From: an uncultured Planctomycetota bacterium | GTDB lineage: Bacteria > Planctomycetota > Phycisphaerae > UBA1845 > CAIVHJ01 | NCBI GenBank assembly: GCA_942492115.1 | Contig: CALODL010000002.1 | Span: 242,803 to 306,802 of the forward strand | Direction: 5' to 3' | DNA: 64,000 nt | In this document: positions 42,109 through 61,045 of the stretch, piece after piece | How positions within the stretch are numbered: position 1 is the first letter of the stretch | How the letters are laid out: each line of letters begins with the position of its first letter | The notes under the pieces: model-generated | Databases searched by the model: none | What the model was told of the DNA's origin: nothing | Seen by the model: the letters and a program-made list of their open reading frames with translations, nothing else | Made by a program: the position numbers and the translations under genes

Positions 42109-42455
42109 TACAGAACCTCCTTGAGTTGTCGAGTGAGCACATCAACAGTGACAGCGTCCCTGCACCTGAGCCCGGCCACTTCCGCAGTTGCGTCGTGGTA
42201 GCCGGAGTCCTATCGACTCCGGATGCGATATCGTCTTGTCGGTTCTCGATGGAGTGCGCTGGGACGCTGCCCGAACGGTCTGTGGGTGGCTGGTCACTGC
42301 GGCTCCGCCGCCCGATGCCACCGTATGGGCCGTTCAATAGTCAAGACGGGACGACGACCATGATGCGCAATGAATTCTGGTGAGATCACAGCAAGCATCG
42401 GGCGCGGACACCACGCACGGTGATAATCACGGTCATGTGTGTACAATGGCCGACC

Positions 42456-47957: not shown

Positions 47958-48128
47958 GCCTGGCTCGATTCTCAGTGACGGTCGGTGAGCAGTGATCGGC
48001 CCCTGCGGGCCTCCCTGGATTCTAGATGCTAGAGGAGAGAATTCAGAATGCCAAAAAAAAGGTTCTTCACGCACTTCCGGGATGGGCCTGCACACATGAT
48101 CCTGTTGACGCACGCGTGGCGCAGGTTC

Positions 48129-48165
48129 CAAAAAAAGAAGCCGCCCCCCGAGCGGGGGGGCGGCT
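48129..48165 (-). terminator. rho-independent terminator after the giant gene
   Basis: Minus strand: GCCGCCCCCC-gctc-GGGGGGCGGC followed by TTCTTTTTTT, about 30 nt after the stop at 48196. Confidence 0.8.
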
Positions 48166-48195
48166 CCGATTGTAGCCCGTTAATGTTATGGCATT

Positions 48196-51100
48196 CTAAC
48201 GCGGGCGGACTTCGGACTTCCCGGCAGCGATCTTGATGACCGCCGGACGCGTACTGCTGACGGCGATCTTGGCCCGAGCAGGCGTCGGGAACAGGAAGGT
48301 CCGTTGCGCCGGATCCGCGTTGTCATGCAACAGATCGATGGTGAACGTCCCGCGGGCATCACGCCCGACACGATAGGTAAAGGTCGCCAGGTAGGCCCGC
48401 CCTGCAGTGGCGATGCCCGGGGTGTCCAATCCCGCGACCATCTGATCGATCCGCGTGTTGAACGCCTCCCAGCTGGCCTCAAAAGCCACGTCCCGTCGCG
48501 ATTCGATGCTGATGTCGACGAGTTCGAGCGTACCGCGCTCACCACCGGCGACCGCGAGATGCAACTGGTAGCCACGCAGATCACTTACGGCGTCATCGAA
48601 GTACACGTCGACGCTGACGAGGTCGCCCGGTCGGGCGCTGCGGGTCGCGGCAATCAGGCTGACGCCCGTGGTATCGACCACCTCGACGGGGGCCTCGACC
48701 ACCGGCGCTGGATCTCCGCCACAGGGACACAGGTTCTCGCCACCGAAACAACTCAACGCGGCGAAGGCATCGTTGCCGTCGCACGTCGAGTCGAGGTTGC
48801 ACGACAGGAACTGACCGCCGGCATCGACGTTGTATACCGGGGTCGGCGACTCGTCTTCACACGTGAACGGGCCGCCGTCAGGCGACTGGCCGGAGAAGCA
48901 GTTGAGCGCCAGGAAGCGGTCGTTGCCATCGCAGGCCAGGTCGTTCTGACAGGCACCGAATTGACCGCCCATGTCGGACTGGCCCGGACCACGGGGTGCG
49001 CTGGTGCACACGCCCGCGACACAGGCATACCACAGACACGGGTCGTCACGCACGCCATCCTGATTGATGTCGGCACAGTCGGCGAGGACCACACACGGTA
49101 GATCGCAGACGACCCCGGCACAGTTCGAGCCGTCGCCCTGGTACGTTCCGCCCATGGCCACACACGCATTGTCCGTTTCGATCGTACAGGTGCCGTTGAG
49201 GCAGCACGCGCCGGTCGGCAGGTCGCATTCCGGATTCGGACATGTCGTCCCATCTCCGACGTAGGTACCACCCGCGGCCACGCACTCATTCGGTGACAGG
49301 ATCGAACAGGTCCCGTCTATGCAGCAGGCTCCCGACGGCAGGTCACAGGCCGCGTTCGGGCACGTCGTGCCGTCGCCCTGGTAGGCGCCGCCATTGGCGG
49401 CACAATCGTCGCCGGTCTCGATCGTGCAGTTCCCGTCCAGGCAGCAGGCTCCTGTCGGTAGATCACAGGCTGCATTCGGGCACGTCGTGCCATTGCCCTG
49501 GTATGTTCCACCGATGGCAGCACAGCCGTTTACGGTGGTCAACGTGCAGTTGCCGTCGAGGCAGCACGCACCGCGACAGACCGGATCACTGGCGCAGTCC
49601 GTGTCGTCGCAATCGACGAAGGTATCGCAGTCGTTATCGACGCCGTCGGTACAGCTGGTTTCGACCGGTGGCGGTGGGCCGCAGTCGATCGGGCAGTTGC
49701 ACTGGTCTTCCGGTGCGTCACAGGCGCCGTCGCCGCAGATGCCCGGACAGACGTCCGGACCACAAGGCGTGTTCGGAACGAACGTTCCACCGAACATGTT
49801 CTCGCAGGCCGCCTGGCTGGTATTCACGCAGCCGCCGGTTGGCAGACAGCACGCGCCGGTGACCGGGCAGGCCGCCGGATCACTCGGGCAGAACGTTGCG
49901 TCGTCCGGGCAGAAGGTAAACGTGCACATCGTGGCATCCTGCGGGCACACGGTGTCAAAGCCCGGGCAGGTGGTGACGACCACGCCGCAAGTCGTCGGAT
50001 CACACGGGCAGGTCGTCGGGACCTGTGGGCAGGTCGTTTCGAGCTGCGGGCACATGGTGTCCTGTTGCGGGCACAGCGTCGGGATGTCTGCACACATCGT
50101 CACCTGGACCGTGCATTCGGTCGGGATTTCAGGACATGCCGTTGGCGTGTTCGGGCAGCTCGTCGGCAGCCCGGTGTCGCACAGTGTCGGCGTGAACGGG
50201 CATGACGTGATGACCGTCTCGCAGAATGTCGGATTCGCCGGGAAGATGGTGAACTCACACGCACCCGGTTGCTGCGGACACAGCGTTTGTTCCACCGGAC
50301 AGTTCGTGATCTCGCCCGGACAGCGCGTCGGATCACACGGACACGACGTCAACTCGAACGGGCAGGCAGTGACGATGTCACTGCACACGGTGAACGTCGG
50401 TTCACAAATGGTGAACTCGCAGAAGGTCGGATCCGGCGGACACTCGGTCACGATGGCCGGGCAGACGGTCGGTTCGACCGGCTGAATCGTCGGATCAGGC
50501 GGACAATCGGAGGTCACCGGACACAGCGTGAACTGCGGCGGACAGAACGTTGGAACGTCGGGACACTGTGTAAACGAGCACAGGGTCGGTTCCTGCGGAC
50601 ACTCGGTCGGGAACTCCGGACAGAACGTCTGGTCGACCGGACAACTCGTGGGATCGCACGGACACAGCGTCTGCGTCAGTGGACACGTGGTCTGCAGCTG
50701 CGGACACAGGGTGTCCTGGACCGGACACACTGTGACGGTGCCGTCGGGACAGGTCGTCGTGCTGGCGTCACACATGGTCACCTGATCGGGACACACGGTG
50801 GCGACATTCGGACACATGGTCGGGGCACCCGTCGTGCACACCGTGGGTGTCTGTGGGCACTCGGTGACTTGCGCCGCGCAGAACGTCGGCACGTCCGGGC
50901 ACACGGTGAACTGACACAGCGTCGCGGCCTGCGGGCACTCCGTGGGGGCCTGCGGACATGCCGTCAGCTGAATCGGGCAGTTCGTCGGATCACATGGGCA
51001 TTCCGTGAAGGTGATCGGACACGCAGTGGGCTCCATTGGGAACACCGTCGGGTCAGGCGGGCAGCCCGCGGCCGGATCGGGCGGACAGAACGTTGGCGTA

Positions 51101-54100
51101 TCCGGGCAGAATGTATGCGTGCAGAACGTCACATCCTGCGGACACACGGTGTCAAAGCCCGGGCACGTCGTGGGCACGATCCCGCAGGTCGTCGGATCGC
51201 ACGGGCATTCCGTGGGGATCAACGGACACGTTGTCTGCAGCTGCGGGCACAGCGTCACCTCACCCACGCACACCGTAGGCGTCGCGGGACAGGCGGTGAT
51301 TTGGCCACAGGTCGTGGGGATTTCCGGACACGCGGTGAACGTGCCGTCGCACAGCGTCGGGGCACCCGTGACACACTCGGTCGGACTCTGCGGACAGGTT
51401 GTGATGGTCGCCGGACAGAATGTCGGCATGTCCGGGAAGATGGTGAATTCGCATTCGCCCGGAATCTGCGGGCACAGCGTTTGTTCGAACGGACACAGTG
51501 TCGCGTTGCCCGGACAGGTCGTCGGGTCGCACGGACAGGCGGTCAGTTCGAATGGGCACGATGTCGGATCGATCGTGCATGTGGTGAACGTCGGTTCACA
51601 AACGGTGAATTCGCAGAACGTCGGATCCGGTGGACACTCGGTCACGATCTGCGGGCAGAACGTCGGTTCGACCGGTTGAGTGGTTGGATCCGGTGGACAG
51701 TCGGGTGTAATCGGGCACAGGGTCGGAGTGGTCGGACAGAAGGTGACCGTTTCGGCACACATTGTGAACTCGCACACCGTTGGAATCACGGGGCACTCGG
51801 TGGTGAACTTCGGGCACTCAGTGTAGGTGATCGGACATGTCGTCGGGTCACATGGACACACCGAAGGTGTCACCGGGCACGTTGTTTGCAGTTGCGGGCA
51901 GATCGTGTCGGCGACCGGACAGACGGTGGCCGTGCCTGCGGGGCACGTCGTGGTCTGGACATCACACATCGTGACCTGGTCGGGACACACGGTGGCCGTC
52001 CCCGGACAGGCGGTCGGAGCGCCGGTTGTGCACATCGTGGGGGTCACCGGGCACTCGGTCAGGATGGGCTCACAGAACGTCGGAACGTTCGGGCACTCGG
52101 TAAACTGACACAGCGTTGGCAACTGCGGACACTCGGTCGGACTGTCGGGACATTCGGTGAACACCACCGGGCAGCGCGTCACGTCGCACGGGCACACGGT
52201 GAATTGACTCGGGCACGTCGTCAGTGAGATCGGGCACTCCGTCGGCACCTGTGGACAGGTCGTCGGGTTCATCGGGAAGACCGTCGGATCCGGACAGCCC
52301 GTGCCATCAGGTGGGCAGAACGTGGCGTCCTGCGGGCATTCGGTGAATGTGCAGAATGTCGGCTCGTTCGGACACATGGTCGTAAACTGCGGACAAACGG
52401 TCAGGATGGTCGAGCACGTCGTCGGGTCACACGGACACACCGTTGGCTGTTCAGGGCACGTGGTCTGCAAGGCCGGGCACTGCGTGACCATGACCGGACA
52501 GACCGTGGCCGTACCATCACCGCACTCCGTCGGTGCCTGGCTGCACAACGTTGGGACGTCAGGACAAACCGTGAACGACGGACACAGTGTCGGCTGGGTT
52601 TGGCATTGCGTGATGTTGCTCGGGCAGACGGTGACCGTCTGCGGGCATTCGGTAAACACCACGGGACAGAAGGTCGGTTGATCCGGGAAGATGGTCGGAT
52701 CGCACTCACCAGGAAGAACCGGGCAGACCGTAGGGGCATCACCCGGGCATACCGTCAGCTGGCCGGGGCAGCGCGTCACATCACATGGACAGGATGTCGG
52801 TTGCATCGGGCAGAAGGTGACTTCGCTCGGGCACTCGGTGAATGCCTGGGGACACACGGTGAATTCACAGACCGTCGGTTCCTGCGGACATTCGGTCGGG
52901 ACCACCGGGCAGTTGGTCGGATCGATCGGGAAAACCGTGGGGTCGGGTGGCGGCGGGCACTCGCCGGCAATCAGCGGGCACGTCGTCGGGATTTGCGGGA
53001 AGATGGTCCATTCGCAGATCGCCGGATCGACGGGACACGATGTAATCGTCGTGGGGCAGAATGTCGGCTGAGGCGGACACGAAGTGGGATCGCAAGGACA
53101 TTCGGTCATCGTCAGCGGACACGAGGTCACCGCGCTGGGACAGAACGTGGGTTCGCAGACGGTCGGAATCCCTGGACATTCGGTGACGAATCCGCAAACG
53201 GTCGGAATCTCCGGGCAGACCGTGGCCTGGCCCGGGCACTGCGTGAACTGGCAGAACGTCGGCTGTGCTTCACACATCGTGGTGTCGCTCATGCACTGGG
53301 TCGGTGCCTGCGGACACGATGTCGGATCCGCGCCGGGGCACAATGTCGCGGCTGCGGGACAGGAGGTGACGTTGCCGCAGAATGTCGGCAGGTCCGGACA
53401 GACCGTGAATTCGCAGAGCGTTGGGGCCTGCGGACACTGGGTCGGGGCTTGCGGGCAGGTCGTCGGGATCTGCGGGCAGAACGTCGGGCTCGTCGGGAAG
53501 ATCGTGAAATCAGTTTTGATGCAACCATCGGGCGAGATCGGAATGTCGAGACAGAAAGCGTGGTCGTAATCGGTGACCTCGGCGGCGGTGTACGCAAAGT
53601 CCCCATCAGTGTCGTGTACGGCTCGGGCATCTCCGGGCGGTGCGGTTTCCCATGACCACACGCAGTCCCCCGATGTCGTCGCCAGGATCTCGATCCAGCA
53701 GCACTGGCCAGCGGCCACGGTCAAAGGAGGATCGATGGTCACCTGGTACTGCCACTCCGGGAACGAACCGCCGACCAGCAGGCCGGTAGAAGACTTGGCG
53801 ACGGTGGCGAACCCGTAGGACGCTTTGACTGCACCGGGCAGGCCGCCCGCATCTTCGTAATAGGTAATGCGGAACTCGTCAGGTCCACCGATCGGGCAGC
53901 CGGCCCCGGAGGCGATGTCGCTGTAGAAGCCCCACCAGCACAGCGATGTGATGGTCGAATCTGCGGTCGGGGTGAAGCAATCGGCAGCGCGCGGAAATCC
54001 GGCGATGGGATTGAAATCACTGAGCGCGCCCAGCGTCAGGCCCGCCCCGTGTCCCATCTGGTCGGGCAGCTGGCAGCCGACGGCAGTATCACAGAAGGCG

Positions 54101-54279
54101 CCGGGAGCCCCCTGGGCCGAGCCATTCACCGCGAATTGTCCGCTGCCGGAACCGAGTATGCGGCTACGGAACGACTTGTCGCGACGCGGCTGGGTTTCGG
54201 TCATCTGCGCGGCAAGTGGGCCGGCCAGGACCGCGAGGGGGAGGATGTACGCACACAACATGGGGCGCGGGCGGAACAT
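48196..54279 (-). CDS. giant secreted Cys/Pro/Thr-rich repeat protein (~2027 aa): N-terminal beta-rich domain, ~1200-aa Cys-heptad region, 5 GACC repeats, dockerin-like pair, cohesin-like domain
   Basis: Uninterrupted ORF. The ATG at 54279 has a GGAAGGA SD 7 nt upstream. Signal peptide MFRPRPMLCAYILPLAVLAGPLAAQ. The central region is CPQIPTTCPQAPTQCPQAPTLCEFTVCPDLPTFC... The C-terminal 330 aa are colinear with the C-terminus of 37544-39697. Confidence 0.85.
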   Translation of the reverse strand: MFRPRPMLCAYILPLAVLAGPLAAQMTETQPRRDKSFRSRILGSGSGQFAVNGSAQGAPGAFCDTAVGCQLPDQMGHGAGLTLGALSDFNPIAGFPRAADCFTPTADSTITSLCWWGFYSDIASGAGCPIGGPDEFRITYYEDAGGLPGAVKASYGFATVAKSSTGLLVGGSFPEWQYQVTIDPPLTVAAGQCCWIEILATTSGDCVWSWETAPPGDARAVHDTDGDFAYTAAEVTDYDHAFCLDIPISPDGCIKTDFTIFPTSPTFCPQIPTTCPQAPTQCPQAPTLCEFTVCPDLPTFCGNVTSCPAAATLCPGADPTSCPQAPTQCMSDTTMCEAQPTFCQFTQCPGQATVCPEIPTVCGFVTECPGIPTVCEPTFCPSAVTSCPLTMTECPCDPTSCPPQPTFCPTTITSCPVDPAICEWTIFPQIPTTCPLIAGECPPPPDPTVFPIDPTNCPVVPTECPQEPTVCEFTVCPQAFTECPSEVTFCPMQPTSCPCDVTRCPGQLTVCPGDAPTVCPVLPGECDPTIFPDQPTFCPVVFTECPQTVTVCPSNITQCQTQPTLCPSFTVCPDVPTLCSQAPTECGDGTATVCPVMVTQCPALQTTCPEQPTVCPCDPTTCSTILTVCPQFTTMCPNEPTFCTFTECPQDATFCPPDGTGCPDPTVFPMNPTTCPQVPTECPISLTTCPSQFTVCPCDVTRCPVVFTECPDSPTECPQLPTLCQFTECPNVPTFCEPILTECPVTPTMCTTGAPTACPGTATVCPDQVTMCDVQTTTCPAGTATVCPVADTICPQLQTTCPVTPSVCPCDPTTCPITYTECPKFTTECPVIPTVCEFTMCAETVTFCPTTPTLCPITPDCPPDPTTQPVEPTFCPQIVTECPPDPTFCEFTVCEPTFTTCTIDPTSCPFELTACPCDPTTCPGNATLCPFEQTLCPQIPGECEFTIFPDMPTFCPATITTCPQSPTECVTGAPTLCDGTFTACPEIPTTCGQITACPATPTVCVGEVTLCPQLQTTCPLIPTECPCDPTTCGIVPTTCPGFDTVCPQDVTFCTHTFCPDTPTFCPPDPAAGCPPDPTVFPMEPTACPITFTECPCDPTNCPIQLTACPQAPTECPQAATLCQFTVCPDVPTFCAAQVTECPQTPTVCTTGAPTMCPNVATVCPDQVTMCDASTTTCPDGTVTVCPVQDTLCPQLQTTCPLTQTLCPCDPTSCPVDQTFCPEFPTECPQEPTLCSFTQCPDVPTFCPPQFTLCPVTSDCPPDPTIQPVEPTVCPAIVTECPPDPTFCEFTICEPTFTVCSDIVTACPFELTSCPCDPTRCPGEITNCPVEQTLCPQQPGACEFTIFPANPTFCETVITSCPFTPTLCDTGLPTSCPNTPTACPEIPTECTVQVTMCADIPTLCPQQDTMCPQLETTCPQVPTTCPCDPTTCGVVVTTCPGFDTVCPQDATMCTFTFCPDDATFCPSDPAACPVTGACCLPTGGCVNTSQAACENMFGGTFVPNTPCGPDVCPGICGDGACDAPEDQCNCPIDCGPPPPVETSCTDGVDNDCDTFVDCDDTDCASDPVCRGACCLDGNCTLTTVNGCAAIGGTYQGNGTTCPNAACDLPTGACCLDGNCTIETGDDCAANGGAYQGDGTTCPNAACDLPSGACCIDGTCSILSPNECVAAGGTYVGDGTTCPNPECDLPTGACCLNGTCTIETDNACVAMGGTYQGDGSNCAGVVCDLPCVVLADCADINQDGVRDDPCLWYACVAGVCTSAPRGPGQSDMGGQFGACQNDLACDGNDRFLALNCFSGQSPDGGPFTCEDESPTPVYNVDAGGQFLSCNLDSTCDGNDAFAALSCFGGENLCPCGGDPAPVVEAPVEVVDTTGVSLIAATRSARPGDLVSVDVYFDDAVSDLRGYQLHLAVAGGERGTLELVDISIESRRDVAFEASWEAFNTRIDQMVAGLDTPGIATAGRAYLATFTYRVGRDARGTFTIDLLHDNADPAQRTFLFPTPARAKIAVSSTRPAVIKIAAGKSEVRPR
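49867..53505 (-). repeat. coding tandem-repeat region: 7-codon Cys-periodic units nested in ~1.2-kb super-repeats (about 3 copies)
   Basis: Cys recurs mostly every 7 residues, with landmarks CPCDPT[ST]C and CEFT[VI]. Near-identical segments recur with an offset of about 1194 nt (compare the stretches ending near 50485 and 51679). Confidence 0.85.
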
Positions 54280-54636
54280 ACCTATTCCTTCCAAGTAGCT
54301 TGCCAGGAGCCTGGCAACAACAAAACTGGTGCGCTATTCGGAGATCACCGACCTGCACGATCGGAGGAGTCCACCCATCCGAGATGAGTCTCGAAGTACG
54401 CTGTCGACTTCCAGACTGGACGTGTCTAACAAAATGTACCGTCACTTCAATCCTGTGCCAAGTGAATTGGTCAAAAAAATCCCCTGAGGGCGCTGCATAC
54501 GACTAATTTGCTGCGTAAGATGCTGAACGACATTTCTTTCTATCAGCCACAAAAGATTCGTGTCCCTGAGAGGTACACTGCAGGAGAGCGATTCTTTTGG
54601 AGAATCCCGAAGGCCCACGCGACCAGGAGGCTGGAC

Positions 54637-55638
54637 ATGAGAACCATGGTGGTGACGATCAGCGGCGGCTTGCTCGCCCTCGTCGGTGTGACTGTTCTGG
54701 CAATGGCAGATGCCAATCTCTTCGATGAGGATCCCGAGTTTTCACCACTGTATAAAGCCACTCTGGAAGACGCGTTTTCACGGTTCAAGGCCAGTGAGGG
54801 ACGCGTACCGCCCGGCGGGTCTGCAACCCCTGAGCCGCGTCCTCAACCACCGCAGCAGCCGATCGCCCGCGCGACCCCGCAGCCGGGCGCCCGGGGCGGC
54901 TTGCTGGGCATCAACAAGAACGCTCCTGTCGGCAACCAGCGTACCCTGCCCGGCCGGACCGGCGCTGCCACACCGCCGACCCACGTTCATGACGACGGTG
55001 GCCCGCACATGCAACGTGGCTCGCAATTGTCCGCCCAGAGGCAATACGACCAGGCCATCGCCGAATTCCGCCTGGCGTTACAGGAGAATCCAAGTCGATC
55101 GCTGGCGCAACACTACATCGGTGATGCGCTGCGCGCCCAGGGTAAACACGATGAAGCGATTGCGGCCTACCAGGCGACCCTCGCCATCAAGCCGGACTAC
55201 TACTGTTGTTATACCCACATGGCTGAAATTCGTGAGGCCCAGCAGAACACGGCCGCAGCCGAGGCGTTCTACCAGCAGGCCATCGCGGGATACATGCAGC
55301 AGGTCGGTGCCAACGGTCCGCAATCGAACATCGCCGCCTACAACCTGGCCAAACTCTACCTCGACAAGAACCGCGGCACGACGGCCGAAATCGTGCGCTT
55401 CGCCGAGAAAGCTGGAAACGTCAATCCACCCCAGGCGCCGTATCTTCACGTCCTCGCGCGGGCGTACGAAAAGGCCGGTCGCCGGGATGAGGCGCTGGCC
55501 ATCATGAACCGCGTCATGGGGATGCAGATGGAGCCGGTCCATCGCCAGTACTACGACAACTACCGCCGACAGCTGACGGCTCAAGGGGCTGCGCCAGGGG
55601 CTGCTCCGGGTGGCCCACCCGCCGCCGGAGGACGTTGA
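54637..55638 (+). CDS. membrane-anchored TPR repeat protein
   Basis: AGGAGG SD 6 nt before the ATG. N-terminal TM MRTMVVTISGGLLALVGVTVLAMA, a Pro-rich linker, then TPR repeats (YDQAIAEFRLALQENP..., HDEAIAAYQATLAIKPDY...). Confidence 0.75.
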   Translation: MRTMVVTISGGLLALVGVTVLAMADANLFDEDPEFSPLYKATLEDAFSRFKASEGRVPPGGSATPEPRPQPPQQPIARATPQPGARGGLLGINKNAPVGNQRTLPGRTGAATPPTHVHDDGGPHMQRGSQLSAQRQYDQAIAEFRLALQENPSRSLAQHYIGDALRAQGKHDEAIAAYQATLAIKPDYYCCYTHMAEIREAQQNTAAAEAFYQQAIAGYMQQVGANGPQSNIAAYNLAKLYLDKNRGTTAEIVRFAEKAGNVNPPQAPYLHVLARAYEKAGRRDEALAIMNRVMGMQMEPVHRQYYDNYRRQLTAQGAAPGAAPGGPPAAGGR

Positions 55639-55682
55639 GCGGCTTCGAATCCTCCGCACGGTCCACCTACAGGAGTTTTCTC

Positions 55683-58127
55683 GTGCAGTTCTTCAGCATT
55701 TTCTTTGCCGTCCTGGCAGTCGGGTTCGCTTCCGAGTCGGCCGGGCTCTACGCCCACGAATTCAACAACGCGATGGCCGTGGTTCTCCTGCTGGTCAGTG
55801 CCGCCATGAGTCCGGCGCTGGCCCGACGCACGGCTCCTCCGGCAGACGGACGTCCTGCGTTGTGGCCGGGCGTGCTGGCCGTGATCATCGGACTGGTCCT
55901 GGTCCCGGCGCCGCAGATGATGCGCTTCTTTGGTCTGGCGTTGTGGTTCTGGGGGATCGCCCGCATCGGAACGGTACGCCGTGCCCGATCTGACGCCAGC
56001 GAAGCCCTGGCCATTGGGGCCGTCGCGCTCGGGTTCTATCATCTGGCCAGCAGTTTGAGCCTCGTGGGCTGGTATCAGACACAGGCCCTGGCGCCGGAAT
56101 TGAGCGCCCTCGCCCGAACCCTGACTGACAAACCGATCGAAATCGGCCCGACGTTCAACGTCATCGCTGTGGTGGTCTTCGCAGTCGGGTGCTGTCTCGG
56201 TGGAGCATGGATCGCGCGGCGGGCGGCGTACCTGCGCTTGCTGTGCGGCCTCGCACTGCTCACGGCGGTCTACGTTGGATATTTGTGCCTGTTCGCGGTA
56301 CTCGATCCAAACATGCTGGCTGCAGAACTTCCGCGCGCGGGTTGGCTGGCCCTCAACCTCGACTGGTTGACCTGGTTGCATCCCTTGCGCATTCCACTCG
56401 TCGGTTGTGTCGGGGTGGCCGTGGCCGTGGCCCTGACCTGGCAGGGCGGCATCGAGCCGGAACCGCACCGATCCTCCGTGTTCAGCGCGGTCGCGGTGGT
56501 CATCGCTTTCTGCGGTATTATTGCGGTTGTGTTGCAGCTCAACTGGCCTGCGGCACCGCGGGCGGACGTCAAGGTTGCCTTGTACGAACATGGCTTCATC
56601 AACTGGCTCAAACCGACACACGATCGCCCGAGCAATGCCTACGGCTCGCGCAGCTCGGGGATGTTCGGGAATCTCGAACCGATGATGGGGTGCATGGGAT
56701 GGTCCGCCGAGCGTATCGATACGATTTCGGCCGCCACGCTGGACGCCAAGGACATCCTGGTCATCATTAATCAAAAGGAACCTCTGCCGGAACAGAGCCT
56801 GGCGGACATCAGCCAGTGGGTGCAACGGGGCGGCAGCCTGCTCGTGCTCGGCGACCACACCTTCGTCAAGAATGGCGTGTTCAGTCTCAATGAGCCGCTC
56901 GAAGACAGCGCCATTCGCGTCGTCAACGATTCGGCAGACTACTTCATCGGTGGATGGCTGCATTCGCTGGGGCACTGGCCGCACCAGACCTCGGCATTTC
57001 TGCATGATGCCACCAACGAAGCGGGTTGTGTCGTAGGTGCATCGCTCGATATTCAATATCCTGCGACGCCGCTGGTCATCGGCCGCTACGGTTACTCTGA
57101 TCCTGCGGATATGTCCCAGCCTCAAAAAGGCTTTCTCGGGACGCTGGAGTATGAGTCCGGTGAGCGTCTGGGGGACATCGTGCTCGTCGCCGGGCAGGAC
57201 GTCGGCGCCGGCAAGATCGCAGTCGTCGGTGATACCTCGGGTTTCGTCAACGCCATCCAGACACAGACCTGGCCGTTTACCCAACGGGTTTTCTCATGGC
57301 TGGGGAGTGCCGGTCGCGCAGCCGTTTCACGTTGGCGCGATATCTGCGGACTTGGATTGTTCATCATCGTGTTCAGCGCCTCCGTCGCGCTGAGTCGGCG
57401 CAGTCCGTTTGTCGTACCGATCGTCTGCCTGGCGATGTGTGCAGCGACGTATGGAGCGCGCCAGGTCCTGACGACCGTGGGGCAGCCGCGTCCGCTGGCC
57501 AGTACCGTGGACGAAGTCGATGGGTTGTACAACGTTGCCGTCGTGGATTTGTCGCACAACGGGCGCCATTCACTCGAAGGGTGGCGCGAGACTGCGATCA
57601 ACGGCGTGTACTTGAATCTCATGCGCGATCAGTGGTTTGCCATCGGTTCAAAGACATTCGATGCCGATCAGATCAAAGCAGCCCGCCTTTTCGTGAGCAT
57701 CGCGCCCACGCAGCCGTACACCGCAGCGGAAGTTGCAGTGCTCGAAGACTTCATGGAAGCCGGAGGCACTGTCGTGGTTGCCGCGGACTGGGAGGACCGT
57801 CACGGCGCGGGCAGTCTCATGGCTCTCGCCGGGGCCGAACTGGTGCACAAACCCCTGGGCCGCGCTCAGACGAACGTGCCGGGGTCAACGGTTCAACCCG
57901 CGTTCTGGCGGGCATGGCCGGTGCGTGGTGACGAGCACTGCGAAACCTGGGTTGCTCTCCGCGATGAGCCAGTGGTCGTCCGGCGGGCAGTGGGCTCCGG
58001 GCAGATGATCATCATCGGTGATGGTGAATTCCTGTTGAACAAGAACCTCGAGAAGGAAGAGGGCGCTATCCTGTCGAACGTGCAATTCTTCCGTTGGCTG
58101 TTGACCCGTATCCCCAAGTCGATGTGA
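55683..58127 (+). CDS. large polytopic membrane protein with two DUF4350/GldG-like (GATase1-fold-like) soluble modules
   Basis: About 8 N-terminal TM helices. Module 1 is ...DILVIINQKEPLPEQSLADISQWVQRGGSLLVLGDHT...KIAVVGDTSGF. Two TM helices follow. Module 2 is ...LFVSIAPTQPYTAAEVAVLEDFMEAGGTVVV...QMIIIGDGEF. The start is chosen at a GTG with an AGGAG SD 7 nt upstream (the ORF-track TTG at 55635 is also possible). Confidence 0.6.
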   Translation: MQFFSIFFAVLAVGFASESAGLYAHEFNNAMAVVLLLVSAAMSPALARRTAPPADGRPALWPGVLAVIIGLVLVPAPQMMRFFGLALWFWGIARIGTVRRARSDASEALAIGAVALGFYHLASSLSLVGWYQTQALAPELSALARTLTDKPIEIGPTFNVIAVVVFAVGCCLGGAWIARRAAYLRLLCGLALLTAVYVGYLCLFAVLDPNMLAAELPRAGWLALNLDWLTWLHPLRIPLVGCVGVAVAVALTWQGGIEPEPHRSSVFSAVAVVIAFCGIIAVVLQLNWPAAPRADVKVALYEHGFINWLKPTHDRPSNAYGSRSSGMFGNLEPMMGCMGWSAERIDTISAATLDAKDILVIINQKEPLPEQSLADISQWVQRGGSLLVLGDHTFVKNGVFSLNEPLEDSAIRVVNDSADYFIGGWLHSLGHWPHQTSAFLHDATNEAGCVVGASLDIQYPATPLVIGRYGYSDPADMSQPQKGFLGTLEYESGERLGDIVLVAGQDVGAGKIAVVGDTSGFVNAIQTQTWPFTQRVFSWLGSAGRAAVSRWRDICGLGLFIIVFSASVALSRRSPFVVPIVCLAMCAATYGARQVLTTVGQPRPLASTVDEVDGLYNVAVVDLSHNGRHSLEGWRETAINGVYLNLMRDQWFAIGSKTFDADQIKAARLFVSIAPTQPYTAAEVAVLEDFMEAGGTVVVAADWEDRHGAGSLMALAGAELVHKPLGRAQTNVPGSTVQPAFWRAWPVRGDEHCETWVALRDEPVVVRRAVGSGQMIIIGDGEFLLNKNLEKEEGAILSNVQFFRWLLTRIPKSM

Positions 58128-58186
58128 GCGGTAGGTGGCATGATGAACGTCGAGATGAGCAGTGAATCCAGGAAGGGTGTGGAACA

Positions 58187-61045
58187 ATGATCAGGTGGGC
58201 TGCCCTCTTACTCCTCACCGTGAGCTGGTTGTTTGCGTTCGGGCACTATGCTCCAGCCGAGCCGCTCGTGCAGTGGTCGCTCATTGGAGCGGCATGGTTG
58301 TGCGCGACTGTCGGCCTGACGCGCTATACGGGCCGCCTCCGGTTACCTCTGATTTACCTGACACTGATCTTGCCCATCAGCGTGGCGGTCGCGCTGGCTC
58401 CGCCGCCGTTTCGTCCGGCCCTGGCGTTGCTGGGTGTTGGCATACTGGTGCTCGGTGTCATTTCTCCACTGAAGTCAGGCTGGCTCGAGCCGCTTGGCAT
58501 CGGGGCGCTGGTGTGCGGAACACTACTGGTCCTGCAGAGCCCGGTGTGGTGGATGGTGACGGCGTTCACGGCCAAGAGCCCTGTGGCGGCGATCAATCCC
58601 GGCGCGGCCGCGGCTGCACCGTGGATCGTGGACATCTTTGGACGGACCGTCGCCTGGCTCGTCGGCTGGCTGGGGAGTGATGTCAGCTACTCCGGTGGCA
58701 CCGTGTTCGTGCGCACGATGCGGCATGTCCATGAGTTCCCCTTGACCTGGGGCCACATGGGTCTGCTCACGATCGCCCAATTGTGGATTGCCGCAGCCGC
58801 CATCATCTGGTTGGATCGCGGACGGCGCGGCATCTGGACGCGATTGATCGCCCTGAGTTGGGGCCTGTTCGGGTTCAGCATCTTGCGCGTTGTTGTGTTG
58901 ATGACGCTGTTTGTCTGCGCGATGGCATTCGTCGAGCATGAGAGTGATACGGTGCACGTGGAAGTCTTCTGGCTACCATCGATTGCGGCCGTGAGCTGGT
59001 TGTTCTTTACTCCGTTTCTTGCACGCATCGTCGACTGGCCGCGCAGCGGCATGGGGCCGGCGTTGCGCGTGCGTCGTGCGGGCGCCCGTATGCGTCGTCT
59101 GGCCATCGGTTTGCTGGCACCGCTCGGCGTCGCAGCGATCATCGTCGGTGTGACGTTCTTCGATCCCGGCACGCGCAACGGTGGTCGCATTCTGCTGGAC
59201 GAGTCCCATAGCCAGTGGGAGCGTACGGATCATGAGTTCGATACAGTGTGGTACGGTCACGAGTCGGTCTACAACTATTACTGCATGGCGCAGTACCTCG
59301 ATCACTACTACGATCTGGATTTCAACATGGATGGCCGGCTGACCCCCGAGATGCTGGCAACCTACGACGTGTTGATCCTCAAGACGCCGACCGACCGCTA
59401 CGATGCCGAAGAGATCGACGCCATTGAAGCCTTCGTGAACAACGGCGGTGGGCTCTTCGCCCTCGGAGAACACACCAACGTCTTCGGGTCGAGCGTCTGC
59501 CTCAATCCCGTCGTCAAGCGGTTCGGGATTCAGTTCCGTCCCGATTCGGTGTTCGACATCGACCGCAAGTGGGAGCAGGTGCATTTTCCGGGTGGGTTGC
59601 ATCCGCGTCCCGACATACAACGCGCCGCAGCACGAGCCGGCCGCCGCCTGCAGCGGCTCGTGGGCGTGGATCCCGCACCCCCTGCGGCAGAGTCCACCCG
59701 CATCGGGCGAGACATCCGGCGGCCCGAGTGGTGGCGCCGTCTGGGCGTGCATCCCATCATGCAGGATGTGCCATTCGACCGCTTCGCCGTGTCCTGTTCG
59801 ATCGCTTCGGACTGGGACGTGCGCTCGGTCATCCGTTCCCACGGTTTGTGGGATCTGCCGGCGGACTATACGGCAGGCAACTTCTACCCCCACGTCGAGG
59901 ATACGACCTATGCCCGTTTTGGTTCGATGGACCAGATGGTCAGCGTCGAATCCGGAGCGGGACGTGTGGTCGCATTCGGTGACAGCACGGTCTATTCCAA
60001 TTTCCTGGCGTTCTACCCCGGTAAGGCCGAAAAACTCCTCGGCACCATCGAGTGGCTCAATCGCAGCAATGCGAGGTTGTGGATCAACAAGTGGTGCGTC
60101 GTGGTCGGTTGCCTGATGCTGTTCATTGCGTTCCTGATCGGGCTGACTGTCCGTCCCCACGTTCCGTTTGCCGCAACTGTCGTTGCGTTCTCGGCGGCGG
60201 CCGGTTGGGTGGCGCTGTGGGCCACGACTGCCTGCAGCCGCTCGGCTTACGCCACCCCGGAACCACACACGCCGCCGCGCATGGTCGTGTTCGCCCTCGA
60301 ACATGCCCAGGGCCATCCGCCGACCGTCGAGCTGCCCCTGTTCGGATTCACGCAGAACTACGCCAACAGCTACGAAATCTTCTACCAGTGGGTCTTGCGT
60401 CTGGGCTATTTCACCGATGTTGCCTTTACACTCGAAGACGCGTTGGCCCGCACCGACGCGGTGGTGCTGGCGAAGCCGCAGGTGCCGTTCAGCCCCGCGG
60501 AGATAGACGCCGTCGAAACGTATCTCAAGTCCGGGGGTGCATTGCTGGTGCTCGATGGGCCGAGTAATGCAAACTCGACGGCCAATGCGCTATTGGAACG
60601 GTTTGGCGCGTCGTTCGGCCCACCCATTCGCGGCGGAACACTGGTCGAACCGTCCAGCAGCGCCCAGATCTGTACGCTGTTCGCAGCACGAACCGTCGAG
60701 GGTGGAGAGCCGTTGCTGCACACGGCGGGGGGGGCTGTTCTTGCCGCACACGTGCGTGTGGGGGCAGGCGAACTCATCGTGGCCGGTCTGGCCGATCGCT
60801 TTTCGGACAGTCGGATGGGGGGCAGCCCGCGTGCCGTGCCCAACCGCGAGATGCGCGCGGTCTTCGAGACCGAGTACGCGCTCATCCGCGGCCTGGTCGA
60901 CGGGGATATCGCGGGTGAGATGGTCAAGCTGGGCGAGTACTATCGCCCTCAAGGGTCTGCTGTTCCGGTGTCACCCGTCGAGGGCACGCCTACGGCAGGC
61001 CTGCTCGATAAGCGTTTCGGTCGCCCCCTGGTGAGCAGTCAATAG
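58187..61045 (+). CDS. large polytopic membrane protein, paralog of 55683-58127 (two DUF4350/GldG-like modules)
   Basis: Same architecture: N-terminal TM bundle, YDVLILKTPTDRYDAEEIDAIEAFVNNGGGLFALGEHTN...VVAFGDSTVYSN, TM helices, then DAVVLAKPQVPFSPAEIDAVETYLKSGGALLVLDGPSN...LIVAGLADRFS. Confidence 0.6.
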   Translation: MIRWAALLLLTVSWLFAFGHYAPAEPLVQWSLIGAAWLCATVGLTRYTGRLRLPLIYLTLILPISVAVALAPPPFRPALALLGVGILVLGVISPLKSGWLEPLGIGALVCGTLLVLQSPVWWMVTAFTAKSPVAAINPGAAAAAPWIVDIFGRTVAWLVGWLGSDVSYSGGTVFVRTMRHVHEFPLTWGHMGLLTIAQLWIAAAAIIWLDRGRRGIWTRLIALSWGLFGFSILRVVVLMTLFVCAMAFVEHESDTVHVEVFWLPSIAAVSWLFFTPFLARIVDWPRSGMGPALRVRRAGARMRRLAIGLLAPLGVAAIIVGVTFFDPGTRNGGRILLDESHSQWERTDHEFDTVWYGHESVYNYYCMAQYLDHYYDLDFNMDGRLTPEMLATYDVLILKTPTDRYDAEEIDAIEAFVNNGGGLFALGEHTNVFGSSVCLNPVVKRFGIQFRPDSVFDIDRKWEQVHFPGGLHPRPDIQRAAARAGRRLQRLVGVDPAPPAAESTRIGRDIRRPEWWRRLGVHPIMQDVPFDRFAVSCSIASDWDVRSVIRSHGLWDLPADYTAGNFYPHVEDTTYARFGSMDQMVSVESGAGRVVAFGDSTVYSNFLAFYPGKAEKLLGTIEWLNRSNARLWINKWCVVVGCLMLFIAFLIGLTVRPHVPFAATVVAFSAAAGWVALWATTACSRSAYATPEPHTPPRMVVFALEHAQGHPPTVELPLFGFTQNYANSYEIFYQWVLRLGYFTDVAFTLEDALARTDAVVLAKPQVPFSPAEIDAVETYLKSGGALLVLDGPSNANSTANALLERFGASFGPPIRGGTLVEPSSSAQICTLFAARTVEGGEPLLHTAGGAVLAAHVRVGAGELIVAGLADRFSDSRMGGSPRAVPNREMRAVFETEYALIRGLVDGDIAGEMVKLGEYYRPQGSAVPVSPVEGTPTAGLLDKRFGRPLVSSQ

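What the first reader, a model, noticed from the sequence alone, without database searches (positions are those of the whole stretch)
49867..53505. Giant secreted protein with ~1200 aa of cysteine-heptad repeats (CPxxPTx)n: candidate new class of disulfide- or metal-laddered fibre
Between aa ~264 and ~1475 Cys recurs predominantly every 7 residues. It is usually followed by Pro and preceded by Thr (…TTCPQAPTQCPQAPTLCEFTVCPDLPTFCGNVTSCPAAATLCPGADPTSCPQAPTQC…). Periodic landmarks are CPCDPT[ST]C, CEFT[VI]C and PDPTVFP. Roughly 180-190 Cys occur in this region, with almost no charged or large aliphatic residues. I do not recognise this as any described bacterial repeat family. In spirit it resembles Cys-laddered beta-solenoids (insect antifreeze proteins) or Pro-rich extensin-like rods. 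The flanks are a signal peptide and N-terminal beta-rich domain on one side. On the other are GACC repeats plus the dockerin/cohesin-like module. This layout suits an extended cell-surface stalk or fibre, or alternatively a very high-capacity thiol metal-binding polymer.
Basis: partly seen in the sequence, partly recalled or inferred. Interest (0 to 1): 0.8.

Follow-up and report, generated by a model that had tools for sequence, protein, structure and literature searches.

The report
Giant cysteine-heptad surface protein family
A real 2,032-residue secreted protein of a Phycisphaerales-type bacterium carries about 1,200 residues of a previously unnamed Thr-x-Cys-Pro seven-residue repeat that recurs across planctomycete and verrucomicrobial relatives, usually next to two GldG-like membrane protein genes, and may help explain their cysteine- and proline-rich protein envelopes.

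Summary
ORF 48196..54294 (-) encodes 2,032 aa. Residues 264-1475 hold 178 Cys, and 66% of Cys-Cys spacings are exactly 7, against 6% in shuffles. The invariant core is T-x-C-P. The array is three diverged ~400-aa super-repeats under purifying selection (dN/dS 0.28), so it is neither an assembly collapse nor non-coding.

Pfam, NCBIfam, PDB sequences and literature searches give no name for the repeat. It is not unique, though. An exhaustive profile search finds 398 protein clusters. DNA-pattern scans find at least 144 loci with 10 or more heptads; the named ones are almost all PVC bacteria. In those proteins the repeat is fused to many different extracellular domains.

New finding: in 31 of 55 loci with enough flank, the repeat gene is followed directly by two paralogous polytopic GldG-like genes. 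In the window these are TPR-GIFT1-GIFT2, 54508-61045, divergently oriented. The link also holds starting from the GldG-like genes, including distant relatives whose T-x-C-P proteins carry a type IX secretion tail.

The C-terminal domain has a cohesin fold. Structure prediction of the repeat gave no confident fold.

Best reading: an extended, acidic, cysteine cross-linkable surface stalk assembled with help from the membrane pair. The mechanism is inferred, not shown.

The parts
48196..54294 (-). Complete ORF of the giant protein (2,032 aa; TTG start listed, an ATG lies five codons in)
   Evidence: GC at codon position 3 is 0.76, like neighbouring genes (0.71-0.77), whereas the long antisense ORF has 0.52.
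54205..54294 (-). N-terminal signal-peptide-like segment (aa 1-30, hydrophobic core aa 11-29, ...LAGPLAAQ)
   Evidence: Hydropathy scan and reading of the sequence. The cleavage site is inferred.
53530..54117 (-). N-terminal globular 'head' with a DUF7901 (PF25470) match (best stretch aa 103-149)
   Evidence: E 1.7e-6, 28.6 bits against a cut-off of 24. Homologues P0006, P0007 and P0009 share only this domain.
49870..53505 (-). T-x-C-P heptad array, aa 264-1475, 178 Cys, net charge about -115
52195..53505 (-). Super-repeat A (aa 264-700)
   Evidence: 55% identity to B.
51001..52194 (-). Super-repeat B (aa 701-1098)
49855..51000 (-). Super-repeat C (aa 1099-1480)
   Evidence: 71% aa identity to B; dN/dS 0.28, dS about 1; Cys 45/45 conserved.
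49573..49854 (-). First GACC unit plus a Cys/Asp-rich segment (aa 1481-1574) that resembles a MopE-like motif by eye
   Evidence: sequence. No Pfam hit. A MopE-related name appears only on homologue P0276.
49093..49572 (-). Four tandem 40-aa GACC repeats (aa 1575-1734)
   Evidence: Tandem Repeats Finder: period 120 nt, 3.3 copies. Direct-repeat family D5. GACC motif positions.
48700..49092 (-). Duplicated Cys-rich dockerin-like segment (two copies of ~DxGGxFxxCxxDxxCDGNDxFxALxCF, each ending in a helix)
   Evidence: Alignment A3 invariants. AF2 helices at model residues 60-71 and 110-120, pLDDT only 50-75. No Pfam dockerin hit.
48217..48687 (-). C-terminal cohesin-fold beta-sandwich (aa ~1870-2026)
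   Evidence: AF2 pLDDT >90 over this part. The Foldseek top 50 PDB hits are all cohesins, best E 5e-9, target TM-score about 0.7.
48137..48167 (-). Intrinsic-terminator-like hairpin (13-bp stem, 11 GC pairs, T7 tail) just after the stop codon
54433..54461 (-). Sigma-70-like promoter match upstream of the ORF (weak evidence)
   Evidence: 9 of 12 matches; about 1 expected by chance in the region.
54508..55638 (+). TPR protein with one N-terminal transmembrane segment; first gene of the divergent TPR-GIFT1-GIFT2 unit (4-nt overlap with GIFT1)
   Evidence: Homologues lie between the heptad gene and GIFT1 in L063, L036, L124, L126 and L127.
55635..58127 (+). GIFT1: polytopic membrane protein (~8 N-terminal TM helices, GldG-like/GIFT domain, TM hairpin, DUF4350 domain)
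   Evidence: Pfam. Topology. IFT52 GIFT homology E 5e-11. Conserved linkage.
58187..61045 (+). GIFT2: paralogue of GIFT1 with the same architecture
   Evidence: Linkage.

Best explanation
The ORF encodes a secreted cell-surface protein of a Phycisphaerales-type planctomycete. Its central 1,212 residues are an array of about 170 T-x-C-P units, mostly heptads C-P-x-x-P-T-x, arranged in three ~400-aa super-repeats. It belongs to a widespread but unnamed modular repeat family of PVC bacteria. The array most likely does not fold into a globular domain. Instead it probably forms a long, proline-stiffened, strongly acidic stalk. After export, its regularly spaced cysteines would be oxidised to disulfides, within the chain and/or to neighbouring envelope proteins. 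The stalk would hold the N-terminal DUF7901 head away from the cell, while the C-terminal GACC units and the dockerin-like/cohesin-fold module tether the protein to the surface. A conserved pair of polytopic inner-membrane proteins with periplasmic GldG-like domains (GIFT1 and GIFT2, here with a TPR protein) is encoded next to such arrays. This pair most likely acts in their export, surface assembly or modification. Shown: the repeat and its statistics, coding under purifying selection, family distribution, domain partners, the cohesin fold, and the gene linkage. Inferred: extracellular location, extended conformation, disulfide cross-linking, and the role of GIFT1/2.
For: Periodicity and the T-x-C-P core are established. 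Selection acts on the protein: dN/dS is 0.28 between super-repeats and all 45 aligned Cys are conserved. The family is real and modular. The exhaustive profile search finds 398 clusters at E<=1e-3, 152 at E<=1e-10 and 42 at E<=1e-30 among 1.84 billion representatives. The genome scan gives 71 loci with >=10 heptads, almost all from Planctomycetota, Verrucomicrobiota, Kiritimatiellia and Victivallales, and the metagenome scan gives 73 more. The family consensus is C, P (90%), x, x, x, T (98%), x. The other four positions are free and switch between acidic, neutral and Lys-rich. This fits a solvent-exposed, non-globular polymer. Fusion partners are extracellular domains: GEVED, DUF7901, LamG, peptidases C10/C25/S8, PA14, dockerin, cohesin, F5/8C and multicopper oxidase. 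The array sits either just after a signal peptide or between a head domain and a C-terminal tail, as a spacer would. The C-terminal 300 aa recur at the C-terminus of more than 400 different proteins, several on the window's own contig, and contain a cohesin-fold domain. Linkage to the GldG-like pair holds in 19/30 genome loci and 12/25 metagenome loci with >=2.5 kb of downstream DNA. In the reverse direction, 4 of 5 GIFT1 homologues have an adjacent T-x-C-P protein, although head and tail domains differ. The GIFT domains are predicted to be periplasmic by the positive-inside rule. [quoted passage not shown]
Against: There is no structural evidence. AF2 on one super-repeat gave pLDDT 29.5, which is uninformative with a 3-sequence alignment. 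There is no direct evidence for expression, export, disulfides or glycosylation. Many family members come from anaerobic lineages such as Sedimentisphaerales, Kiritimatiellia and digester MAGs, where extracellular thiols could stay reduced. The near-invariance of Thr (98%, Ser only 1%) is stronger than a plain spacer needs and hints at a specific chemical or enzymatic role. GIFT1 has no invariant Cys in 32 homologues, so it is unlikely to be the oxidoreductase. In the window the giant gene is divergent from TPR-GIFT1-GIFT2 rather than upstream on the same strand. About 45% of well-flanked loci lack the pair next door.
Confidence: 0.5

Rival explanations
1. The T-x-C-P units are repeated sites of a post-translational modification, such as O-glycosylation of the invariant Thr, S-glycosylation, or Thr-Cys thioether formation. 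The modification would be installed in the periplasm by, or with the help of, the GIFT1/GIFT2 pair. The array would then be a heavily modified, mucin-like or covalently cross-linked polymer, and the modification rather than disulfides would give it its properties.
For: Only T, C and P are conserved while everything else drifts, as expected for an enzyme-recognised short motif. Thr is 98% and Ser only 1%. There is dedicated gene linkage to two large membrane proteins with periplasmic domains carrying many invariant polar residues: D391-H392-T393, D416-S417, H427-S428, E494, D498, D517-T518-S519. Glycosyltransferase genes (GT87, GT4) lie next to one cluster.
Against: GIFT1 and GIFT2 match no glycosyltransferase, lanthionine synthetase or other modifying-enzyme family. 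Their conserved motifs lie in GldG/IFT52-type domains, which are not known enzymes. Glycosyltransferase neighbours are not conserved across loci. About 45% of arrays have no adjacent pair.
Confidence: 0.2
2. The array is a high-capacity thiolate ligand polymer: an extracellular metal- or heme-binding sponge or wire. Cys-Pro dipeptides would act like heme-regulatory (CP) motifs or as soft-metal ligands.
For: There are 178 regularly spaced Cys, 68% of them followed by Pro. One family member (P0001) and its relative in locus L020 are fused to multicopper oxidase domains. Many members come from anoxic habitats where thiols stay reduced. In the wider family the residue before Cys is often R/Q/K, loosely like heme-regulatory motif contexts; that comparison rests on my own knowledge.
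Against: No CxxC, CC or His-containing chelating clusters occur in the array: 1 His in 1,212 aa, and only 11 CxC. A single Cys every 7 residues flanked by Pro is a poor chelator. Fusion partners are mostly proteases, lectin-like and adhesion domains, not metal enzymes. No metal transporter or heme gene is conserved next to the arrays.
Confidence: 0.1
3. The array folds into a thin, disulfide-cored beta-solenoid or stacked beta-hairpin rod (like insect antifreeze proteins or granulin), for example 14 residues per coil with one cross-core disulfide.
For: Strict Cys periodicity and a T-x-C arrangement recall the Thr/Cys ladders of Tenebrio antifreeze protein (my own knowledge). The only PDB sequence hit to the heptad profile is a granulin, at E 0.017 over 17 residues. 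The conserved irregularities (CPCDPTxC about every 107 aa) could be structural punctuation.
Against: AF2 predicts no strands. Pro makes up 19-28% of residues. The non-T/C/P positions are not conserved and change charge class between members. Spacings of 5, 6, 8, 9, 10 and 12 are freely interspersed. The granulin hit is at chance level.
Confidence: 0.1
4. The ORF is not a real gene: a repeat-driven assembly artefact, or an open frame that exists only because the repeat lacks stop codons.
For: Long ORFs are open on the opposite strand as well, for example 50269..52227 (+) at 652 aa. The window comes from a contig of undetermined assembly type, whose closest named relatives are MAGs.
Against: Super-repeats differ by about 28% in DNA, so reads would not collapse. 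dN/dS is 0.28 and Cys is fully conserved. GC3 is 0.76 in frame against 0.52 antisense. Recognisable domains lie in the same frame at both ends. Uninterrupted window-type arrays of 1,086, 1,636 and about 1,170 aa occur in independent assemblies with the same neighbours. A strong terminator follows the stop codon.
Confidence: 0.02

Closest known systems
YTV-domain cysteine-rich cell-wall proteins of Planctomycetales (Pfam PF07639)
   Same: These are secreted, Cys- and Pro-rich repeat proteins of planctomycetes, recovered from SDS-resistant cell-wall preparations (PMC8567305). They are candidate carriers of the disulfide-stabilised protein envelope (PMC3035269).
   Different: There is no sequence relationship: no YTV hit even at E<=10. 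YTV proteins are reported only in Planctomycetales and not in early-branching lineages (PMC8567305). T-x-C-P arrays occur in Phycisphaerae, Pirellulales, Verrucomicrobiota, Kiritimatiellia and Victivallales. No linkage of YTV genes to GldG-like genes came up in the papers I read or searched.
Pro/Thr-rich interdomain linkers of secreted glycoside hydrolases and extensin-type rods
   Same: P+T content is about 39%. The array has a non-globular prediction, a modular position between extracellular domains, and variable length.
   Different: Those linkers lack cysteine and strict periodicity, and Ser and Thr interchange freely in them. Here Cys is invariant every 7 residues and Thr is 98%. The comparison with linkers rests on general knowledge.
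Disulfide-cross-linked structural repeat proteins (chlamydial OmcB/OmcA, keratin-associated high-sulfur proteins, cnidarian minicollagens)
   Same: These are Cys/Pro/Thr/Gln-rich short repeats whose role is covalent disulfide networking of an extracellular or envelope matrix. This is the function proposed here.
   Different: They are unrelated in sequence and have different motifs (CC-x-P-x pentads, CxxxC domains). None has a T-x-C-P heptad or a GldG-like partner. The comparison rests on my own knowledge and was not tested.
Tenebrio/spruce-budworm antifreeze beta-solenoids and granulin hairpin stacks
   Same: They have regular Cys and Thr ladders in short repeats and form rod-like disulfide-pinned structures.
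   Different: Their periods are 12-15 residues and they are low in Pro. No sequence match was found and AF2 predicts no beta structure.
GldG of the GldA/F/G gliding-motility ABC transporter, and the IFT52 GIFT domain (for the partner proteins)
   Same: GIFT1 and GIFT2 carry ABC_transp_aux/GIFT/DUF4350 domains above Pfam thresholds. The profile matches IFT52 GIFT domains at E 5e-11. The domains are predicted to be periplasmic, as in GldG. The distant clusters sit next to type IX secretion cargo.
   Different: They are not GldG orthologues: TIGR03521 scores 24.8 bits against a cut-off of 389.85. They have about 8 extra N-terminal TM helices and two GldG-like domains. They occur as a paralogous pair, and no ABC ATPase gene is adjacent.
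Cellulosomal cohesin-dockerin modules (for the C-terminal tail)
   Same: The last ~155 aa adopt a cohesin-type beta-sandwich. The preceding duplicated segment has dockerin-like Asp/Asn-rich loops followed by helices.
   Different: There is no Pfam Cohesin or Dockerin match. The dockerin-like part is Cys-rich and poorly predicted. The module is a fixed C-terminal tag on more than 400 unrelated proteins, which looks more like a sorting or anchoring signal than a scaffoldin.

Membership tests
T-x-C-P heptad repeat family (unnamed; defined here) | At least 10 consecutive units with Cys every 7 residues, Pro at +1 and Thr at -2 of Cys | tested here: met
   119 exact heptads; T at -2 in 158/178 and P at +1 in 121/178 Cys. 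BLAST-level similarity of the array to family members in the loci is 38-42% identity over ~1,200 aa, and homologues P0001-P0005 are found by HMMER.
T-x-C-P heptad repeat family (unnamed; defined here) | Adjacent pair of GldG-like polytopic membrane protein genes | tested here: met
   GIFT1 55635-58127 and GIFT2 58187-61045 lie beside the ORF, though divergently oriented. The same pair follows the array gene in 31/55 informative loci.
YTV planctomycete cell-wall proteins (PF07639) | Match to the YTV profile | tested here: not met
   No hit for the whole protein or for a 312-aa repeat segment at E<=10.
Insect antifreeze-type Cys-laddered beta-solenoid | 12-15-residue coil repeat with a T-x-T face and an intracoil disulfide; beta-solenoid fold | tested here: not met
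   The period is 7. There is no PDB sequence match. AF2 shows no strands but has low confidence, so the fold itself remains inconclusive.
Metallothionein-like thiolate cluster proteins | Dense CxC / CxxC / CC motifs forming metal-thiolate clusters | tested here: not met
   Spacing 2 occurs 11 times. The single spacing of 1 is the CC of the GACC unit at the array's end, and spacings of 3 and 4 are absent in the array. Metal binding itself is not testable here.
Granulin | 12-Cys module with CC pairs | tested here: not met
   The only match is E 0.017 over 17 residues of the heptad profile. There are no CC pairs in the array.
DUF7901 (PF25470), N-terminal domain | Score above the Pfam gathering threshold | tested here: met
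   28.6 bits against 24 when the N-terminal 267 aa are scanned alone; 21.3 bits for the full protein.
Cohesin (C-terminal domain) | Nine-stranded jelly-roll beta-sandwich of cohesin type | tested here: met
   AF2 pLDDT >90. The Foldseek top 50 hits are all cohesins, E down to 5e-9. The sequence profile PF00963 is not matched, so this is fold-level membership only.
Dockerin type I | Duplicated calcium-binding F-hand matching PF00404 | tested here: inconclusive
   No Pfam hit. A duplicated D/N-rich loop plus helix is seen in A3 and in the model, but at pLDDT 50-75.
GldG (TIGR03521), partner proteins | Equivalog-level score; single N- and C-terminal TM segments; adjacent GldA/GldF genes | tested here: not met
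   24.8 bits against a cut-off of 389.85. About 10 TM segments. No ABC ATPase gene nearby. Domain-level GIFT homology is met.

The most novel reading that the evidence does not exclude
T-x-C-P arrays and the GIFT1/GIFT2 pair together form a previously unrecognised envelope-assembly system. It would be shared by PVC bacteria and at least one lineage that uses type IX secretion. In it, the two GldG-like polytopic proteins recognise the T-x-C-P motif in the periplasm. They would then either install a repeated covalent modification or polymerise and cross-link the arrays into the disulfide-stabilised, Pro/Cys-rich protein layer or fibres long known from planctomycete envelopes.
Probability: 0.3. 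Interest if true: 0.85.

Novelty: new variant of a known kind. Interest (0 to 1): 0.68.

Why it matters
[quoted passage not shown] The only molecular candidates so far, YTV proteins, are restricted to Planctomycetales (PMC8567305).

The T-x-C-P arrays are a second candidate class. They are much more widely distributed and their composition fits: in this window, 15% Cys, 19% Pro and 20% Thr. They come with a conserved pair of dedicated membrane proteins.

This turns a vague biochemical observation into testable genetics. One can delete the pair, follow the array protein, and map its thiols and modifications.

The work also gives a working name and a search pattern for a repeat found in hundreds of giant 'hypothetical' proteins, and it flags a lineage-specific cohesin-fold C-terminal tag on more than 400 secreted proteins.

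Tried and rejected
Family scans. Pfam and NCBIfam scans of the whole protein and of sub-regions found nothing for the heptads, the GACC units or the C-terminal tail.

PDB sequence searches. The protein and the heptad profile gave only chance-level hits: teneurin at E 0.0065 in the Cys-rich tail, and granulin at E 0.017.

Structure prediction of the repeat. AlphaFold2 of super-repeat B with a 3-sequence alignment gave pLDDT 29.5, so it was unusable and was not sent to fold search.

Literature. Keyword searches (cysteine-rich/heptad/Planctomycetes/Verrucomicrobia; the motif strings CPXXXT, TXCP and similar; DUF7901) found no description.

Source organism. I tried to identify it among the fetched genome loci by blastn and found no match. 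It was inferred only from the names on homologues, Phycisphaerales/Phycisphaerae.

Inversion. I looked for inverted repeats that could explain why the giant gene is inverted relative to TPR-GIFT1-GIFT2 and found none of note.

Other neighbours. I checked whether the downstream DUF4198 and BNR genes are conserved partners; they have no homologues in any related locus.

GIFT1/2 transmembrane region. I looked for an enzyme signature in the N-terminal transmembrane region of GIFT1/2 and found no Pfam match.

Assembly collapse and non-coding readings were rejected.

Linkage to the DUF7901 head rather than the array was also rejected. Linked array proteins in L063+L114, L126, L127, L128 and L129 have different heads and tails with no DUF7901 evident.

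Full report
**1. The observation**

The window contains one uninterrupted ORF at 48196..54294 on the minus strand, 2,032 aa.

This stretch has 178 Cys in 1,212 residues (14.7%), with 19.6% Thr and 19.0% Pro. Of the 182 Cys-Cys spacings between Cys258 and Cys1489, 118 are exactly 7, 24 are 5, 11 are 2 and 10 are 8. Within aa 264-1475 the fraction of spacings equal to 7 is 0.661. In 2,000 shuffles of the same residues the mean is 0.057 and the maximum 0.13.

In the 119 exact heptads the consensus is C-P-x-x-P-T-x, with Pro2 in 97 and Thr6 in 111. Over all 178 Cys, Thr is at -2 in 158 and Pro at +1 in 121. The true invariant core is therefore T-x-C-P.

The 5-residue units (CEFTVC) and the 12- and 14-residue gaps (for example CEFTI-FPDMPTF-CP) are the same unit. 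They differ either by a shortened spacer or by Cys replaced with Phe or Gln.

- Thr is two residues before Cys, not adjacent to it.
- The region is very acidic: 119 Asp+Glu against 4 Lys+Arg, plus 65 Phe.
- There is a hierarchy of repeats. A CPCD[PV]TxC landmark recurs 11 times, about every 107 aa. Three ~400-aa super-repeats cover the array: A 264-700, B 701-1098, C 1099-1480.

**2. Is it a real gene?**

Super-repeats B and C are 71% identical in protein and only about 72% in DNA. A collapsed or expanded assembly of identical repeats is therefore not the explanation.

Between B and C, dS is about 1 and dN/dS is 0.28. All 45 aligned Cys, 48 of 55 Pro and 52 of 67 Thr are conserved.

GC at third codon positions is 0.76 in the annotated frame, like the neighbouring genes (0.71-0.77). 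The 652-aa ORF on the opposite strand has 0.52. That ORF and its neighbours are by-products of a stop-free repeat.

Recognisable domains lie in frame at both ends. A 13-bp GC-rich hairpin with a T7 tail follows the stop codon.

Uninterrupted arrays of the same irregular type occur in independent assemblies with the same neighbouring genes. They are about 1,170 aa (L063+L114), 1,086 aa (L126) and 1,636 aa (L127).

**3. Architecture of the protein**

From N- to C-terminus:
- An N-terminal hydrophobic signal-like segment.
- A DUF7901 domain, 28.6 bits against a cut-off of 24.
- The T-x-C-P array.
- One GACC unit and a Cys/Asp-rich segment.
- Four tandem 40-aa GACC repeats.
- A ~300-aa C-terminal module.

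That C-terminal module recurs at the C-terminus of more than 400 otherwise unrelated proteins. Several of these are on the window's own 389,659-nt contig, so it behaves like a lineage-specific sorting or anchoring tag.

I modelled the module with a 21-sequence alignment. The last ~155 residues form a beta-sandwich at pLDDT >90. Its 50 best PDB matches are all cohesins, with best E 5e-9.

The preceding duplicated Cys-rich segment looks dockerin-like but is poorly predicted and has no Pfam match.

Names attached to homologues place the organism in Phycisphaerales/Phycisphaerae.

**4. The repeat is an unnamed but widespread family**

Pfam (2025), NCBIfam (2026) and PDB sequences give nothing for the heptads, either in this protein or in 54 + 6 other members. 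Literature searches found no description.

A word-indexed search found only 11 relatives. An exhaustive HMMER search with a six-heptad profile found 398 clusters at E<=1e-3, 152 at <=1e-10 and 42 at <=1e-30, among 1.84 billion representatives.

I also built a degenerate DNA pattern for 4.7 consecutive heptads. It gives 13 hits in the window and 0 in shuffles.

In the genome set, 71 loci have 10 or more in-frame heptads. Almost all come from these groups:
- Phycisphaerae, Sedimentisphaerales and Tepidisphaeraceae
- Pirellulales and Planctomycetaceae
- Brocadiia
- Verrucomicrobiales and Akkermansiaceae
- Kiritimatiellia
- Victivallales

Single short hits in other phyla have only 4-8 units and are probably unrelated.

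Across 3,599 family heptads, Cys is followed by Pro in 90% and Thr occupies position 6 in 98% (Ser 1%). The other positions are free.

**5. What the family context says**

The arrays are fused to a wide range of extracellular modules:
- GEVED and DUF7901 (the commonest pair)
- LamG
- CarboxypepD_reg
- peptidases S8, C10 and C25
- PA14 and F5/8C
- cohesin and dockerin
- beta-propellers
- multicopper oxidase

The array sits either right after the signal peptide, with a dockerin at the C-terminus, or between a head domain and a short conserved C-terminal tail (...C-P-A-I-E-x-x-C-P-T-V...).

The variable positions differ by member. They are Glu-rich in some, Lys-rich in others, and neutral or Phe-rich in the window. 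Spacings of 5-12 residues are interspersed.

This pattern is what one expects of a solvent-exposed, non-globular spacer with three chemically important residues. It is not what one expects of a domain with a packed core. AlphaFold2 on super-repeat B returned pLDDT 29.5 and no secondary structure. That agrees with a non-globular spacer, but with only three sequences in the alignment it is weak evidence.

**6. A conserved gene cluster**

Look-ups of homologues P0005 and P0010 showed the array gene followed by two large DUF4350/ABC_transp_aux/GIFT proteins. The same three families are annotated just beside the giant gene in the window: TPR 54508-55638, GIFT1 55635-58127 and GIFT2 58187-61045.

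I tested this forward and in reverse.

- Forward, genome loci: of 30 with at least 2.5 kb downstream of the array ORF, 19 have a GIFT1 homologue and then a GIFT2 homologue immediately downstream on the same strand. Five more with shorter flanks have GIFT1.
- Forward, independent metagenome set: 12 of 25.
- Reverse: I started from five GIFT1 homologues at 30-45% identity.
  - Two Phycisphaerales clusters have a window-type array protein, then TPR, GIFT1 and GIFT2.
  - Two distant clusters (31-32% identity, unknown lineage) have divergently adjacent Lys-rich proteins with T-x-C-P arrays and a type IX secretion C-terminal domain.
  - Only a singleton GIFT1 without GIFT2 lacks an array gene.

The head and tail domains of the linked proteins differ: DUF7901, dockerin, CHRD-like by eye, unknown, or a type IX secretion tail. 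The array itself is the common element.

Array proteins without the pair next door often end in a dockerin instead of the tail motif.

In the window the giant gene is divergent from TPR-GIFT1-GIFT2. In relatives it is upstream on the same strand. No flanking inverted repeats explain this.

**7. The partner proteins**

GIFT1 and GIFT2 are paralogues. Each has about eight N-terminal transmembrane helices, a GldG/IFT52-type GIFT domain, a transmembrane hairpin and a second DUF4350 domain.

A profile of 32 GIFT1 homologues matches IFT52 GIFT domains at E 5e-11. The positive-inside rule places both soluble domains in the periplasm.

They are not GldG orthologues: 24.8 bits against a cut-off of 389.85. 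No ABC ATPase gene is adjacent.

GIFT1 has many invariant polar residues but no invariant Cys. It is therefore unlikely to be a thiol-disulfide oxidoreductase.

DUF4350/GldG-like proteins have been proposed on comparative grounds to belong to secretion or membrane-remodelling complexes (PMC5898192).

**8. Interpretation**

The best-supported reading has three parts.
- The array is an extended, acidic, proline-stiffened stalk.
- Its evenly spaced cysteines are oxidised after export, to neighbours in the chain or to other envelope proteins.
- The stalk displays the DUF7901 head, while the cohesin-fold module anchors the protein.

If fully extended at about 0.31 nm per residue, the array would span roughly 375 nm. 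This is my own estimate, not a measurement.

The GldG-like pair probably helps to export, assemble or modify such arrays.

This would fit the old finding that planctomycete SDS-resistant envelopes are Pro- and Cys-rich protein stabilised by disulfides (PMC3035269). The known YTV candidates do not cover Phycisphaerae (PMC8567305).

The extreme conservation of Thr and the dedicated membrane pair leave room for a repeated covalent modification. I rate that the main rival. Metal or heme binding and a solenoid fold are less likely but not excluded. An artefact is effectively excluded.

**9. Verdict**

The finding is real and the repeat is undescribed. It is a member of a sizeable family rather than a singular oddity, and its function is still inferred.

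The added value of this analysis is the definition of the T-x-C-P core, the family census, the cohesin-fold tail, and above all the conserved linkage to two GldG-like membrane proteins. That linkage makes the system experimentally tractable.

Noticed in passing
window 54508-61045 (+): The TPR-GIFT1-GIFT2 operon (TPR and GIFT1 overlap by 4 nt). It encodes two paralogous ~10-TM proteins with two periplasmic GldG/IFT52-like domains each. The pair is conserved next to T-x-C-P array genes across PVC bacteria and in a lineage with type IX secretion cargo. Its function is unknown.
   Followed up: yes
window 48217-49092 (-); homologues P0160-P0279: A ~300-aa C-terminal module (duplicated Cys-rich dockerin-like segment plus cohesin-fold sandwich, ending in a basic tail) is attached to more than 400 different secreted proteins with FG-GAP, Kelch, LTD, nuclease, peptidase and other heads. 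Several lie on the window's own contig. Pfam and NCBIfam have no model for it. It looks like a lineage-specific sorting or anchoring tag.
   Followed up: partly
window 49093-49572 and 49813-49854 (-): 40-aa 'GACC' repeats (GACCxxGxCxxxxxxxCxxxGGxxxGxGxxCxxxxCxxP) have no Pfam or NCBIfam match. The same repeat occurs in many copies in P0162, P0167 and P0174, and after the heptad array in L063.
   Followed up: partly
loci L009, L013, L015, L017, L045, L085, L092, L093, L106, L180, L210, L217 and others: Most array proteins that are followed by the GIFT pair end in a conserved ~20-aa tail: C-P-[AVT]-[ILV]-[ED]-[AV]-x-C-[PL]-[TS]-[VI] followed by a short hydrophobic or basic end. This may be a recognition or anchoring signal. 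Array proteins without the pair often end in a dockerin instead. The window protein has neither.
   Followed up: partly
L128 7495-9453 (-); L129 8041-9585 (-) and 6484-7629 (-): Lys-rich proteins with T-x-C-P units at spacings of 7 and 10 and a Por_Secre_tail (type IX secretion) domain lie divergently next to GIFT1/GIFT2 homologues of 31-32% identity. The source lineage was not identified.
   Followed up: partly
window 49394-50485, 50269-52227, 52600-53655 (+): Long ORFs (351-652 aa, Arg/Gly/His-rich) run antisense to the repeat. GC3 was measured for one of them (50269-52227) and is 0.52, against 0.76 for the sense frame. They are stop-free by-products of the repeat and a trap for gene callers.
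   Followed up: yes
window 44974-47232 (-), 61115-62473 (-), 62549-63607 (-): Neighbouring secreted beta-propeller proteins: a BNR/sortilin-like protein (F510_1955-type glycosylhydrolase match below its cut-off) ending in a dockerin-like D/N-rich tail, a YWTD/LDL-receptor-B propeller with a Pfam Dockerin_1 domain, and a Kelch propeller. Together with the cohesin-fold tag, this suggests cohesin-dockerin-type surface display in this genome.
   Followed up: no
window 47229-48131 (-) and 42420-44963 (+): A DUF4198 protein lies directly downstream of the giant gene, after the terminator, and a DUF4953 Met-zincin/DUF5117 protein lies nearby. Homologues of the DUF4198 and BNR genes were searched for in the related loci and not found; the Met-zincin gene was not tested.
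   Followed up: partly
window 54294 vs 54508: The giant gene is divergent from TPR-GIFT1-GIFT2, whereas in all relatives examined it is upstream on the same strand. No inverted repeats flank the segment. This is either a genuine inversion or an assembly join, and is worth checking with long reads.
   Followed up: partly
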